A DNA stretch of 49,951 nt from Candidatus Woesearchaeota archaeon (GTDB taxonomy: Archaea; Nanobdellota; Nanobdellia; Woesearchaeales; SKGA01), in NCBI GenBank assembly GCA_007117735.1, contig SKGA01000028.1, forward strand, positions 1 to 49,951. Direction: 5' to 3'. Every line of letters starts with the position of its first letter. Position 1 is the stretch's first letter. The position numbers were made by a program, and so were the translations under genes. A model generated the notes under the pieces. The model worked only from the letters and a program-made list of their open reading frames with translations. It was not told the origin of the DNA and searched no databases. Positions 35,917 through 38,505 of this stretch are shown here, in pieces.

Positions 35917-36417
35917 TTAAGAACAAAATCCCATGGTTATTCGTGCAACTCCCGAATCAGGAAAATAGGGAAGTAAAAATACTCCTGGTGCAGAGGTTCC
36001 TACAACATCAGGAGCACAATCAAAGGAGTTAAACGTGATGTTATGTCCTGGTCGATAAAGAATAGTAAAATGAAAAGGCATTCCCCACACATCAAGAGTA
36101 TCATCGACTAATGAAGATATAAGCTGTTCAGCCACATCACAACTTGTTCGAGAAAATCCGCAACGAAGACTTGATCGTGTTCGTCCACAATCAATAACCA
36201 TTTCTTCAACAGTTGCTTGACAAGTAGAAGAATGTGTTTGTAAGAGTGTTTGAATAAACCCTGTTGCTAATTCATTTGAAGAAAAAGACTTATACAACTG
36301 ATCACCTGTATCCGTTAATTCCCGGGAGGTTGTCGAGGAAACGTAAATAAGTAAGGCAATTGACAGAATAAGTACAATAAACACTAAACCTATTATTTCT
36401 ATTTGTGCTCGTTTCAT
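35917..36417 (-). CDS. Class III signal (prepilin-like) protein, MKRAQ family
   Basis: MKRAQ IEIIGLVFIVLILSIALLIYV. The 5' 17 nt are identical to two paralogues. ATGA overlap. Confidence 0.65.
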   Translation of the reverse strand: MKRAQIEIIGLVFIVLILSIALLIYVSSTTSRELTDTGDQLYKSFSSNELATGFIQTLLQTHSSTCQATVEEMVIDCGRTRSSLRCGFSRTSCDVAEQLISSLVDDTLDVWGMPFHFTILYRPGHNITFNSFDCAPDVVGTSAPGVFLLPYFPDSGVARITMGFCS

Positions 36418-36902
36418 CGGTAATACTGCTCCAGAGTTAATATTGCAAAAGAATGACGGTCAAGAACAGGGTTATGAATAGAAACAGGTATTAAAGAAGA
36501 AGATACTCTTCGAGGAGTTTCGCCTAACGTATTATTATATAATACCCAGCTTTGTGTTGAAGGATATATTTCATCAACCCGCACCATCGCATTTCCTAAT
36601 TGAGTAAAATAGTAGGGAGTAAATAAATCCGGACGTTCCTGCCTAAATCGAACAAAACCATCTAGTTTTAACATATTAAGACAATTTGCTCGCCGTACTT
36701 GTAAGGATGAACATTGTAATTCGCTCAAAGCACCAACATATTTACTAATTGCTATCGCGTCTAAATCTTGTAAAAGCGTTTCTTGTCTATCCGTTCCTCG
36801 TTCACGAGAACCACTATAAAAAACCAAACCAAAAACAAAGAGAAGAATAAGTATAATGACGGTAAAAATTGTTTCTCCTAATTGTATTTGTGCTCGTTTC
36901 AT
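36414..36902 (-). CDS. Class III signal (prepilin-like) protein, MKRAQ family
   Basis: MKRAQ IQLGETIFTVIILILLFVFGLVF. Confidence 0.65.
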   Translation of the reverse strand: MKRAQIQLGETIFTVIILILLFVFGLVFYSGSRERGTDRQETLLQDLDAIAISKYVGALSELQCSSLQVRRANCLNMLKLDGFVRFRQERPDLFTPYYFTQLGNAMVRVDEIYPSTQSWVLYNNTLGETPRRVSSSLIPVSIHNPVLDRHSFAILTLEQYYR

Positions 36903-36904
36903 CG

Positions 36905-38008
36905 TTAATAAAGTAAAGGACAGTTTGTTTCTAAAGCAACCCTGTTATTCAGTTGATCTATTCTTGAAGTGAGAGTGGATAGTTCTCGAATAGTAGCAGG
37001 ACTCATTCCTCGTTGTACGGTTTGATTTACTTGTTCAAGTAAATATTTCATTCCATAAAACCCTTCCCTATCTGTTCCGATAAGTAATGCTCGGCAGGAA
37101 GAACTTACTAATGGTTCTGCTTCTAAAAGTGAAGCGTGTAATACTAAACTTACTGCTTCTAAGCGATCAAGTGCCTTATCCATAACGCACGTGTATCGTT
37201 CTCTTGACTCGCTAAAAAGCGCAGCAAAAAAACTTGCTTTTCCAAGGTATGATTGAGAAACCTGTTCGATTTCTGCGACAGGTAATAAATCATTTCGAAA
37301 ATTTTCATATTGTTGAACGGTTAAGAAAAGAACTCTTCCCGATTCAAATATTCGTTGAGAGTTTGGTTGAACAAGAAGAATAGTTGTTCTATCAGCAGGT
37401 GTTTGAAAAATAGTTCTTGCAGGAGGAAGCGCCATCCCATCTATGAAAACAAAAGTATAGTGGTCTCTATTTGATTGGACTGTAGGTACGTTTGCAAAAT
37501 TATCTCGAACTACTCGCTGAGTAAAATTTGAAGGGAACGCGTCAAGAAGGGTTCGTAAAGGTACAGAAGGTTCTGGCGTGTCTTGATAAAAAATAACCTC
37601 TCGCTGTGGAGTAGTAATATACATAAATCTATCAATGGGAAAAGGAACTTCCCATTCTACTGCCCAGGTATATAATCTTCGTGTCGAAAATTCTTGGGGA
37701 GCGACAAACAAATCATATCTTGTTTCTCGTGCAGAAATGCCGTTAATTAAGAAAGAGTGTCGAGATTCTAAATAATTACAAACAAAAGAAAGATCAGTAA
37801 GTGGTGTTTGATAATCTTTAACAGTATCAGGTTGTTGTAGAGTTGTTGTGAAAATAGTATCAAACTGTCTGGCAATTTGAACATTTACTTGCTGATCAGC
37901 AGATGATTGTTGACGAAAAGAAAACGTCACTAAAAAAGCAAGTAGGATTGCTCCAATAACTAAAACAAAAATCCAGTTAAATTGAATTTCTATTTGTGCT
38001 TTACTCAT
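36905..38008 (-). CDS. Class III signal (prepilin-like) protein, MSKAQ variant, 367 aa
   Basis: MSKAQ IEIQFNWIFVLVIGAILLAFLV. ATGA overlap with the upstream gene. Confidence 0.65.
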   Translation of the reverse strand: MSKAQIEIQFNWIFVLVIGAILLAFLVTFSFRQQSSADQQVNVQIARQFDTIFTTTLQQPDTVKDYQTPLTDLSFVCNYLESRHSFLINGISARETRYDLFVAPQEFSTRRLYTWAVEWEVPFPIDRFMYITTPQREVIFYQDTPEPSVPLRTLLDAFPSNFTQRVVRDNFANVPTVQSNRDHYTFVFIDGMALPPARTIFQTPADRTTILLVQPNSQRIFESGRVLFLTVQQYENFRNDLLPVAEIEQVSQSYLGKASFFAALFSESRERYTCVMDKALDRLEAVSLVLHASLLEAEPLVSSSCRALLIGTDREGFYGMKYLLEQVNQTVQRGMSPATIRELSTLTSRIDQLNNRVALETNCPLLY

Positions 38009-38505
38009 GATGATTGCACCAAGGTAGTTCTTGCTTGTCCTCGCAGAGTCACATCAAAAGTTCCTGCTCGCGCAGGTATACAAAGCGGTTGTGAAGGATC
38101 ATCTAAACGCAAAGTATGAGCATAACCTAACTCTACCATAATATTATCTCTATCAAAAGTAAAAATATTCGCTTGAACTCCTTGTTCTACACTTGATTGC
38201 ATTAACCAGTACGAACCACCTGTTTGTGCTTGTCGATAAGAAACTTCTCCAGAAATTGCTCGAGGATCGATAAAACAAAGTTCTCGTTGATGACATGCTG
38301 ATGCAAAACGTTGTTGTCTAACCGAACCAAAGTCATTACTTGTCCGTATAGTATCAAGAATAGTGCTTCTTTGAATTAAATATTCACTCATACACTTATC
38401 ATCAAATAAACCCGATCCAAATCGTGCAGCAACAAGAACCAGGACTCCTATAACTAATAAAGTCATAATCATAGTAAACATGTTGCTCATTTGTGCTCGT
38501 TTCAT
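38005..38505 (-). CDS. Class III signal (prepilin-like) protein, MKRAQ family
   Basis: MKRAQ MSNMFTMIMTLLVIGVLVLVAA. ATGA overlap with the giant gene upstream. Confidence 0.65.
   Translation of the reverse strand: MKRAQMSNMFTMIMTLLVIGVLVLVAARFGSGLFDDKCMSEYLIQRSTILDTIRTSNDFGSVRQQRFASACHQRELCFIDPRAISGEVSYRQAQTGGSYWLMQSSVEQGVQANIFTFDRDNIMVELGYAHTLRLDDPSQPLCIPARAGTFDVTLRGQARTTLVQSS

What the first reader, a model, noticed from the sequence alone, without database searches (positions are those of the whole stretch)
35917..38505. Four tandem M[KS][RK]AQ prepilin-like paralogues with identical 17-nt gene heads
Four consecutive genes (166, 367, 162 and 166 aa) start MKRAQ / MSKAQ / MKRAQ / MKRAQ, followed by a 20-25-aa hydrophobic helix. 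Three of them share the identical first 17 nt, ATGAAACGAGCACAAAT (minus strand, at 38505-38489, 36902-36886 and 36417-36401). The rest of each gene has diverged. A very short basic leader, a small residue (A), then Gln at +1 resembles the archaeal class III signals processed by EppA/PibD-type peptidases (K/R-G/A then Q). The tandem arrangement directly after the membrane-anchored giant gene suggests structural filament subunits (major plus minor pilins) generated by duplication, with selection or gene conversion keeping the leader constant.
Basis: partly seen in the sequence, partly recalled or inferred. Interest (0 to 1): 0.7.

Follow-up and report, generated by a model that had tools for sequence, protein, structure and literature searches.

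The report
Four pilin-like genes in a Woesearchaeote
Four adjacent genes in a tiny DPANN-type (Woesearchaeota-like) archaeon carry the signal that marks pilus subunits; they are four old, unrelated, unannotated protein families kept in the same order in at least 66 related genomes, most likely the low-abundance subunits of a surface filament used for attachment.

Summary
In detail: four minus-strand ORFs (166, 367, 162 and 166 aa) begin MKRAQ/MSKAQ followed by a hydrophobic helix, and three share an exact 17-nt head.

They are not recent paralogues. Each (A, B, C, D) is its own ancient family, kept in the order A-B-C-D in 66-84 Woesearchaeota/Nanoarchaeota genomes. Profile-profile comparison finds no similarity outside the N-terminal helix.

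The pilin-like reading holds:
- Leaders vary from 3 to 27 aa but always end [KR][GAS].
- Gln at +1 is nearly invariant in A, C and D.
- The "signal" helix is the best-conserved part of each protein (QFNWIF is invariant in B).
- AlphaFold models of B and D (pLDDT 83) show a 55-58-residue N-terminal helix followed by a beta-sheet head.

There is no hit to any Pfam or NCBIfam pilin model or any PDB fold. No pilus ATPase, platform protein or prepilin peptidase lies within 10 kb in any of 84 loci.

The probable major subunit is the next gene, E (81 aa). It is often present in 1-3 tandem copies and has its own TATA box in 26 of 34 relatives, against 0-2 for A-D. A-D are tightly packed behind giant secreted proteins.

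Best reading: a minor-pilin-like set for an Epd/EppA-like type IV filament. This is a new variant of a known kind.

The parts
38005..38505 (-). Gene A, 166 aa. Head MKRA|QMSNMFTMIMTLLVIG. Family signature Q+1 ... Q+5, F+7; no acidic residue in the helix.
   Evidence: ORF. Orthologues found in 70 of 84 loci by blastp clustering. +1 Gln in about 68 of 70. ATGA overlap with the giant gene upstream. Structure not predicted.
36905..38008 (-). Gene B, 367 aa. Head MSKA|QIEIQFNWIFVL. The large member of the set. QFNWIF is invariant and the C-terminus is CPxxY.
   Evidence: ORF. Present in all 84 related loci and 107 GTDB species genomes. 2076 clusters at 50% identity. AlphaFold pLDDT 83.3, pTM 0.80: helix 2-57, beta domain 62-142, alpha/beta part, helical bundle 256-360. 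No PDB fold match.
36414..36902 (-). Gene C, 162 aa. Head MKRA|QIQLGETIFTVII. Q+1 and E+6 invariant.
   Evidence: ORF. Found in 67 of 84 loci. Logo. Structure not predicted.
35917..36417 (-). Gene D, 166 aa. Head MKRA|QIEIIGLVFIV. Q+1, E+3, G+6 and L+7 invariant; six conserved Cys in the head.
   Evidence: ORF. Found in 66 of 84 loci. 250 database relatives, all unnamed and without Pfam domains. AlphaFold pLDDT 83.5: helix 3-60, two helices, four strands. No PDB fold or sequence match.
35617..35862 (-). Gene E, 81 aa, GTG start. Head (M)RKKA|ELSMNIIIMAIIGLIILAIVAYLIF, with a small Cys-rich tail. Candidate major subunit.
   Evidence: Gene call in L001. E-like genes in 1-3 tandem copies right after D in at least 34 of 58 loci; mature length 74-118 aa; very conserved N-terminus Q[GS][IL]S[IL]N.IIIAAIAL.
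35901..35908 (-). TTTAAATA, an archaeal TATA-box consensus, 46 nt before the GTG start of E.
   Evidence: TTTAWATA lies 43-56 nt before the first E-like gene in 26 of 34 loci. It occurs in the same position for 2/58 A, 2/82 B, 2/59 C and 0/64 D genes, and at 12 of 1680 random positions.
35869..35874 (-). GAGGTG, a Shine-Dalgarno-like site 7 nt before the start of E.
   Evidence: An SD-like motif precedes 35 of 58 E-like genes, against 12% of random positions.
38502..42788 (-). Giant 1428-aa protein: Sec-type signal, Ig-like and Cys-rich modules, C-terminal TM anchor, charged cytoplasmic tail. Its stop codon overlaps the start of A.
   Evidence: Only weak Big_13/Y_Y_Y hits. Relatives in 56 loci.
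42804..47000 (-). Giant 1398-aa Cys-rich secreted protein (N-terminal ...QANSQACC). A TATA-like box lies at 47035-47042 just upstream.
   Evidence: Sub-threshold CarboxypepD_reg hit (E 5e-05, 24.0 bits against a cut-off of 32.3). Relatives in 46-61 loci. TATA.
24425..35601 (-). Eleven further same-strand genes. Eight carry [KR][GAS] plus a hydrophobic helix. They end with a 1221-aa protein that has a class-III-like head and a weak VanY/M15 match.
   Evidence: Synteny is kept only in the closest relatives L002, L003, L013 and L039.

Best explanation
A, B, C and D are four different type IV pilin-like proteins (substrates of a class III signal peptidase) of a Woesearchaeota-type DPANN archaeon.

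Proposed mechanism:
1. Each protein is inserted in the membrane by its N-terminal helix.
2. A PibD/EppA-type prepilin peptidase, encoded elsewhere in the genome, removes the 4-residue leader MKRA/MSKA, leaving Gln at +1.
3. The retained helices pack together as a low-abundance, equimolar set. This set primes or caps a type IV filament, much as the four bacterial minor pilins do.
4. The shaft is built from the small pilin E, encoded next.
5. The giant secreted proteins encoded just upstream, on what looks like the same transcript, are the likely adhesins, used for attachment to a surface or host cell.

Shown here: the conserved cleavage-type motif, the four separate families in fixed order, tight gene packing, the helix-plus-sheet models for B and D, and E's own promoter.

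Inferred: cleavage, filament assembly, tip or priming role, adhesin display and host attachment.
For: (1) Motif. Leaders are 3-27 aa and unrelated in sequence, but -3/-2 are K or R and -1 is G, A or S in all four families. +1 is Gln in about 68/70 A, all C and all readable D.

(2) The hydrophobic segment is the most conserved part of each protein: QFNWIF invariant in 83 B; E+3, G+6, L+7 in 64 D; E+6 in 59 C. A cleaved Sec signal would not be conserved like this. It fits a helix retained for subunit packing.

(3) AlphaFold. D has pLDDT 83.5 with helix 3-60 followed by a 4-stranded sheet. B has pLDDT 83.3 and pTM 0.80 with helix 2-57 followed by a beta domain.

(4) Context. 13 of 19 genes in the 24.4-47 kb cluster have [KR][GAS] plus a hydrophobic 18-mer, against 1 of 23 genes outside it.

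(5) Fixed order giant-A-B-C-D-E in 66-84 genomes. Median gaps are 3, 4 and -4 nt.

(6) E is small, occurs in tandem copies, and has a TATA box in 26/34 loci against 0-2 for A-D.

(7) Precedent. M. maripaludis EppA substrates have short leaders and +1 Gln, with a 74-aa major pilin. Its pilus genes are spread over at least 4 loci, with the ATPase and platform genes apart from the pilin genes (PMC3875500; PMC6098224). System 1 (Epd-type) machineries occur in DPANN (preprint 10.64898/2026.04.22.720090).
Against: - No Pfam or NCBIfam pilin model matches any of A-E.
- Foldseek finds no solved pilin or any other fold for B or D (best E 0.016 and 0.22).
- A FlaFind-like pattern, recalled from memory, is not met because of E, Q or N at +3/+4.
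- No pilus ATPase, platform protein or GxGD peptidase lies in the window or within 10 kb in 84 loci.
- A and C were not modelled.
- The -1 residue here is Ala, not the Gly of the Methanococcus substrates. The acidic residue is at +3 or +6, or absent, rather than +5.
Confidence: 0.6

Rival explanations
1. A-D are uncleaved N-terminal signal-anchor (type II) membrane proteins. They form a membrane-bound complex with the giant surface proteins, such as a cell-envelope or contact-site scaffold. No peptidase and no filament are involved.
For: - No assembly ATPase, platform protein or peptidase near the cluster in 84 loci.
- No match to any pilin HMM or solved pilin fold.
- A single TM helix with basic residues before it is also what a signal anchor looks like.
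Against: - A plain anchor needs positive charges, but not a small residue at -1 and a near-invariant Gln at +1 in three unrelated families.
- Invariant polar or acidic residues sit at the start of the helix: E+3, E+6 and QFNW.
- The modelled helix is continuous for 55-58 residues, far longer than a membrane span.
- These features are typical of pilins. Separate pilin and machinery loci are documented.
Confidence: 0.15
2. The set (small E plus four larger pilin-like proteins, one of them double-sized) is a short pseudopilus, as in bacterial type II secretion or competence systems. It would push the neighbouring giant proteins and the hydrolase-like protein through the envelope, or take up DNA, rather than form an adhesive fibre.
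For: - The composition of one small plus four larger subunits, one of about 370 aa, mirrors GspG plus GspH-I-J-K (established knowledge of T2SS).
- The cluster is full of large secreted proteins.
Against: - No homology to Gsp or Com proteins.
- The giants have ordinary Sec-type signals and one has its own membrane anchor.
- No secretin-like or machinery genes nearby.
- With these data a pseudopilus cannot be told apart from a pilus.
Confidence: 0.12
3. The four genes are tandem duplicates of one pilin gene. Their bodies diverged while selection or gene conversion kept the leader constant.
For: - The 17-nt heads are identical in A, C and D.
- In relative L003, A, C and D again share an identical head but with CGC instead of CGA. 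L003's sister L008 keeps CGA.
- There is a mild within-genome excess of shared head codons: 396 observed against 358 +/- 12 expected.
Against: - Each gene has its own orthologues with family-specific mature N-termini in 59-84 genomes.
- Core profiles are mutually unrelated (hhalign probability below 1%).
- In most genomes the four leaders differ from each other in length and sequence. A constant leader is therefore a feature of this clade, not of the module.
Confidence: 0.08

Closest known systems
EppA-processed Epd pilins of Methanococcus maripaludis (DUF361/Class_IIIsignal; archaeal TFF 'system 1')
   Same: - Short basic leader with a small residue at -1.
- Conserved Gln at +1, and an acidic residue near the start of the helix.
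- Several larger 'minor' pilins plus a major pilin of 74-81 aa.
- Pilin genes encoded apart from the ATPase and platform genes (PMC3875500; PMC6098224).
- System 1 is reported in DPANN.
   Different: - No DUF361/Class_IIIsignal HMM hit.
- -1 is Ala or Ser as often as Gly.
- Glu is at +3 (B, D) or +6 (C), or absent (A), not at +5.
- No eppA in or near the cluster.
- Four fixed families with heads of unknown fold.
- Linked to giant Cys-rich proteins.
Bacterial minor-pilin sets with tip adhesin (T4aP FimU-PilV-PilW-PilX + PilY1; T2SS GspH-I-J-K)
   Same: - Four mutually dissimilar pilin-like genes in one tightly packed operon.
- One member is about twice the size of the others.
- Encoded next to a very large secreted protein.
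- Separate from, and less strongly promoted than, the major subunit.
   Different: - No sequence or fold similarity.
- Archaeal-type leader (K/R-A|Q) instead of G|F/M...E5.
- No PilY1/PilC domain detected in the giants.
- Formation of a complex was not tested.
PibD-processed archaeal pilins (Aap, Ups, Haloferax PilA; Pfam Pilin_N PF07790)
   Same: Class III signal architecture and a retained hydrophobic N-terminal helix.
   Different: - Only 1 of 27 concatenated A+C+D sequences gave a sub-threshold Pilin_N hit (E 0.007).
- Those pilins do not have a conserved +1 Gln.
Flp/Tad-type small pilins
   Same: Gene E is a very small pilin (about 76 mature residues), often with Gln at +1 and often in tandem copies. 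Small size and +1 Gln are noted for Flp pilins in PMC3875500.
   Different: - No Flp motif.
- E has a Cys-rich C-terminal knob.
- One E-like protein reaches Pfam DUF6719; none reach a pilin family.

Membership tests
Archaeal type IV pilin-like proteins (class III signal peptide substrates) | Short basic leader ending in a small residue, directly followed by a hydrophobic stretch of about 20 residues | tested here: met
   Window heads. Conserved in 59-83 orthologues per family: -3/-2 K or R, -1 G, A or S.
Archaeal type IV pilin-like proteins (class III signal peptide substrates) | Match to the FlaFind-type cleavage pattern [KRDE][GA][ALIFQMVED][ILMVTAS]x3 (pattern recalled from memory) | tested here: not met
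   A-D fail at +3/+4 (E, Q or N). Only E and two downstream genes match. The pattern may be inexact.
Archaeal type IV pilin-like proteins (class III signal peptide substrates) | Leader removed by a PibD/EppA/FlaK-type peptidase | not testable with these tools
   Needs proteomics or a cleavage assay.
Archaeal type IV pilin-like proteins (class III signal peptide substrates) | Long N-terminal alpha-helix followed by a beta-sheet head | tested here: met
   D: helix 3-60 plus 4 strands, pLDDT 83.5. B: helix 2-57 plus a beta domain, pLDDT 83.3. A and C were not modelled. Packing was not inspected.
Archaeal type IV pilin-like proteins (class III signal peptide substrates) | Fold or sequence similarity to a solved pilin | tested here: not met
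   Foldseek against PDB: best E 0.22 for D and 0.016 for B, none of them pilins. D profile against PDB sequences: nothing.
Archaeal type IV pilin-like proteins (class III signal peptide substrates) | Hit to a curated pilin model (Pfam Pilin_N PF07790, Class_IIIsignal PF04021; NCBIfam) | tested here: not met
   No hit for A-E. Among 27 A+C+D concatenates, one weak Pilin_N hit; among 120 D members, none.
Archaeal type IV pilin-like proteins (class III signal peptide substrates) | TFF ATPase, platform protein and prepilin peptidase present in the same genome | not testable with these tools
   None in the 50-kb window or within 10 kb in 84 loci. Whole genomes could not be read.
EppA-dependent Epd pilins (DUF361, TFF system 1) | Gln at +1 | tested here: met
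   Gln in all four window genes. Near-invariant in families A, C and D; 20 of 83 in B. Feature as described in PMC3875500.
EppA-dependent Epd pilins (DUF361, TFF system 1) | Leader ending in Gly, and Glu at +5 | tested here: not met
   -1 is Ala in the window and G/A/S in relatives. Glu is at +3 (B, D), +6 (C) or absent (A).
EppA-dependent Epd pilins (DUF361, TFF system 1) | DUF361/Class_IIIsignal domain hit | tested here: not met
Minor-pilin tip/priming complex (GspHIJK, FimU-PilVWX type) | Four distinct pilin-like subunits co-encoded, one enlarged, separate from the major pilin | tested here: met
   Order A-B-C-D is fixed in 66-84 genomes with gaps of -4 to 4 nt. B is twice the size of the others. 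E has its own promoter.
Minor-pilin tip/priming complex (GspHIJK, FimU-PilVWX type) | Homology to Gsp/Pil minor pilins | tested here: not met
   No Pfam hit and no PDB fold hit.
Minor-pilin tip/priming complex (GspHIJK, FimU-PilVWX type) | The four subunits form one complex at the filament tip | not tested

The most novel reading that the evidence does not exclude
The module is an archaeal counterpart of the bacterial minor-pilin/PilY1 tip complex, evolved independently or diverged beyond recognition. It presents giant adhesins. Together with the downstream pilin-headed protein that carries murein-hydrolase-like domains (VanY/M15, and NlpC/P60 in a relative), it lets Woesearchaeota attach to and breach bacterial cell walls. 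That would mean these DPANN archaea parasitise or prey on bacteria through a pilus-borne lytic apparatus.
Probability: 0.1. Interest if true: 0.85.

Novelty: new variant of a known kind. Interest (0 to 1): 0.5.

Why it matters
Woesearchaeota are abundant, uncultured, ultra-small archaea thought to depend on other cells. How they attach is unknown.

This work defines a lineage-wide, unannotated gene module. Family B alone has 2076 clusters at 50% identity, and 107 GTDB species genomes encode a relative. The module has the hallmarks of a type IV filament: four minor-type subunits, a separately promoted small major subunit and giant adhesin candidates.

It provides:
- concrete targets for metaproteomics, such as N-termini starting at Gln, and for cryo-ET;
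- sequence signatures that pilin predictors and TFF classifiers currently miss;
- an archaeal case for asking whether four-subunit priming or tip complexes are a general solution in type IV filaments.

Tried and rejected
- Recent paralogy: rejected. hhalign of family cores gives probability below 1%.
- Known pilin families: Pfam and NCBIfam scans of A-E, of 27 A+C+D concatenates, of 120 D members and of 10 E-like proteins found no pilin family.
- Solved structures: Foldseek against PDB for D and B, and a D profile against PDB sequences, gave only noise.
- A profile of concatenated A+C+D as a database query returned nothing, presumably swamped by candidates sharing only short words. A 10-sequence D alignment worked.
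- Exact look-up of the 1396-aa giant failed. The 55.7-kb ENA contig (L001) is a near-identical strain, not the window itself. The window is a whole 49,951-bp NCBI contig.
- A search for a secretion ATPase Walker motif, P-loop proteins, and multi-TM GxGD peptidases in all flanks found none relevant.
- Family-wide gene conversion of heads: only a weak signal.
- Mobile element or virus origin: not pursued. GC content is uniform and housekeeping genes flank the cluster.
- Supplements of the TFF preprint are not held.
- Literature searches found no description of this module.
- The 1221-aa protein has no PDB sequence match.
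Full report
OBSERVATION. The window is archaeal: it carries an archaeal RNase P RNA at 19552-19861 and NAC and RPA-like genes. GC content is about 0.35. On the minus strand, 38505-35917 holds four ORFs exactly as described:
- A, 166 aa, MKRAQM
- B, 367 aa, MSKAQI
- C, 162 aa, MKRAQI
- D, 166 aa, MKRAQI

The 17-mer ATGAAACGAGCACAAAT occurs three times, at the starts of A, C and D, and nowhere else even with three mismatches allowed. Genes overlap as ATGA at giant/A, A/B and C/D. 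Given the peptide MKRAQ and local codon usage, three genes would share all codons with P of about 0.009.

WHO CARRIES IT. B has eight database homologues at 21-40% identity, all unnamed and without Pfam domains. Their contigs show the same gene order. A scan of one genome per GTDB species with the B alignment found 107 genomes, 80 of which were fetched. Nearly all are Woesearchaeota/Nanoarchaeota MAGs. A full HMMER search finds 2076 B-family clusters at 50% identity. D has 250 relatives, all hypothetical. The window itself is a whole 49,951-bp NCBI contig. No taxonomic label is attached to it; its assignment rests on these relatives.

FOUR FAMILIES, NOT FOUR RECENT COPIES.
- Blastp clustering of all ORFs in 84 loci gives separate clusters: B in 84 loci, A in 70, C in 67 and D in 66. 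The order is always A-B-C-D, usually behind a Cys-rich giant protein (61 loci).
- Each family has its own mature N-terminus:
  - A: Q..(G/Q)Q.F
  - B: xIE(I/L)QFNWIF, with QFNWIF invariant
  - C: QIQ(M/L)xE(T/S)
  - D: QxEIxGL
- Profiles of 57-78 sequences per family, with the first 32 residues removed, are mutually unrelated (hhalign probability below 1%). With the heads included, only the helices align weakly.

Any duplication is therefore ancient and undetectable.

THE HEAD IS A CLASS-III-TYPE SIGNAL.
- Leaders range from 3 to 27 residues and differ among genes and genomes (MKRA, MKKKA, MNQQRKA, MKKG, MRKKS and others).
- Positions -3/-2 are K or R and -1 is G, A or S.
- +1 is Gln in about 68/70 A (two have Glu), all C and all readable D. 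This was checked without the motif-based selection. B has Q, A, V, I, F or G at +1.
- The hydrophobic segment is the most conserved part of each protein. That argues it is retained and engaged in specific packing, not discarded.
- In the window, 13 of 19 genes of the 24.4-47 kb minus-strand cluster show [KR][GAS] plus a hydrophobic 18-mer, against 1 of 23 genes elsewhere.
- M. maripaludis EppA substrates have 5-13-aa leaders ending in Gly, +1 Gln, +5 Glu and a DUF361 domain. Its major pilin is 74 aa, and its pilus genes lie in at least four loci, with the ATPase and platform genes apart (PMC3875500; PMC6098224).
- Epd-type 'system 1' machineries are reported in DPANN (preprint 10.64898/2026.04.22.720090).

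STRUCTURE.
- D (120-sequence alignment): pLDDT 83.5. Helix 3-60, two short helices, four strands.
- B (9 sequences): pLDDT 83.3, pTM 0.80. Helix 2-57, a beta domain at 62-142, an alpha/beta part and a C-terminal helical bundle.
- This is the helix-plus-sheet layout of pilins. However, Foldseek against PDB gives nothing significant, and the D profile matches no PDB sequence.
- No Pfam or NCBIfam pilin model is hit.
- A and C were not modelled. Model coordinates could not be inspected.

MAJOR VERSUS MINOR.
- Right after D lies E (35862-35617, 81 aa, (M)RKKA|ELSMNIIIMAIIG...).
- E-like genes follow D in at least 34 of 58 loci, in 1-3 tandem copies. Mature length is 74-118 aa. The N-terminus is highly conserved: Q[GS][IL]S[IL]N.IIIAAIAL.VLVVL..IFTGR.
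- The archaeal TATA consensus TTTAWATA lies 43-56 nt before the first E-like gene in 26 of 34 loci. For comparison it is found at 2/58 A, 2/82 B, 2/59 C and 0/64 D genes, and at 12 of 1680 random positions. An SD-like GAGGTG is also enriched.
- In the window the box is at 35908-35901. In the minus-strand cluster the only other copies are at 47042-47035, just before the 1398-aa giant, and at 46876-46869, inside that gene.
- A-D therefore probably ride on the giants' transcript, with tight or overlapping junctions (median gaps 3, 4 and -4 nt). E has its own strong start.
- This fits low-abundance, stoichiometric minor subunits plus an abundant shaft subunit.

MACHINERY. No TFF ATPase, platform protein or GxGD peptidase is present in the window or within 10 kb in any of 84 loci. 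This does not refute the model, given the Methanococcus precedent. It does leave the key requirement untested.

THE IDENTICAL HEADS.
- Most genomes have four different leaders.
- In the window's clade they are homogenised. The window and L008 use ATGAAACGAGCACAAAT. L003 uses ATGAAACGCGCACAAA in A, C and D alike, while its B differs. This suggests concerted change.
- Family-wide, the excess of shared head codons is small: 396 of 676 observed against 358 +/- 12 expected.
- I regard local gene conversion or a start-region constraint as possible but unproven.

VERDICT. The finding is real. The prepilin-like reading is supported by comparative and structural evidence. The 'paralogues' and 'major plus minor among the four' parts are not supported.

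Best model (confidence 0.6): a minor-pilin-like quartet of an Epd/EppA-like type IV filament of Woesearchaeota, with E as the shaft subunit and the upstream giants as adhesins.

Rivals:
- uncleaved anchors of a membrane complex (0.15)
- a secretion or uptake pseudopilus (0.12)
- recent duplicates with a converted head (0.08)

Novelty: new variant of a known kind. Interest: 0.5.

Noticed in passing
window 24975-28640 (-): This 1221-aa protein has a class-III-like head (MKRLHKKG|FGMLFLAVVFF). It gives a weak VanY/M15 peptidase match at residues 1106-1201 (Pfam E 7e-5, below the cut-off; NCBIfam vanXY 0.0015). By eye it also shows SLT-like (AIAMKESSMG) and NlpC/P60-like (GFDSAGW...PGDILIF, Cys replaced by Ser) motifs. 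Its orthologue in L002 has a precomputed NLPC_P60 hit. It may be a pilin-headed murein hydrolase in an archaeon. It has no PDB sequence match.
   Followed up: partly
window 35617-35862 (-) and 35901-35908 (-); relatives L002-L086: The small pilin-like gene E has its own TATA-like box and SD-like site. E-like genes occur in 1-3 tandem copies after D in at least 34 of 58 loci. One E-like protein (L013) reaches Pfam DUF6719 (27.9 bits, cut-off 27).
   Followed up: yes
window 38491-38505 (-): Public gene calls start gene A at Met6 (161 aa), which removes the MKRAQ leader. The 166-aa form is not in the protein collection. Orthologues support the longer form.
   Followed up: yes
window 47035-47042 (-): A TTTATATA box sits about 35 nt before the start of the 1398-aa giant gene. 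It is probably the promoter of a transcript covering both giants and A-D. The window holds only 10 TTTAWATA sites in total, several of them just upstream of genes.
   Followed up: partly
window 1463-3145 (+) and 10156-11448 (-): There are two class II Asp/Asn-type tRNA synthetase genes. One has a GAD domain, as in bacterial-type AspRS. The other lacks it.
   Followed up: no
window 38502-42788 (-), residues ~1080-1130: The giant protein carries repeated 'EEGVDCGGPC' Cys-rich modules. These are followed by a TM anchor and a long Q/K/E-rich cytoplasmic tail. Relatives occur in 56 loci.
   Followed up: no
L021 (JAFCCF010000001.1): A full A-B-C-D-E module lies on an 80-kb contig of a MAG titled 'Candidatus Aminicenantes bacterium'. 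This is probably a mis-binned archaeal contig.
   Followed up: no
L018, L023 and about 10 other loci, roughly 4 kb downstream of B, mostly on the opposite strand: A conserved ~300-aa neighbour begins MRRKVIKLGENSLLVSLPSKW, which looks like an AbrB/SpoVT-type DNA-binding domain. It is found in 12 loci and could be a local regulator. It was not checked against Pfam.
   Followed up: no
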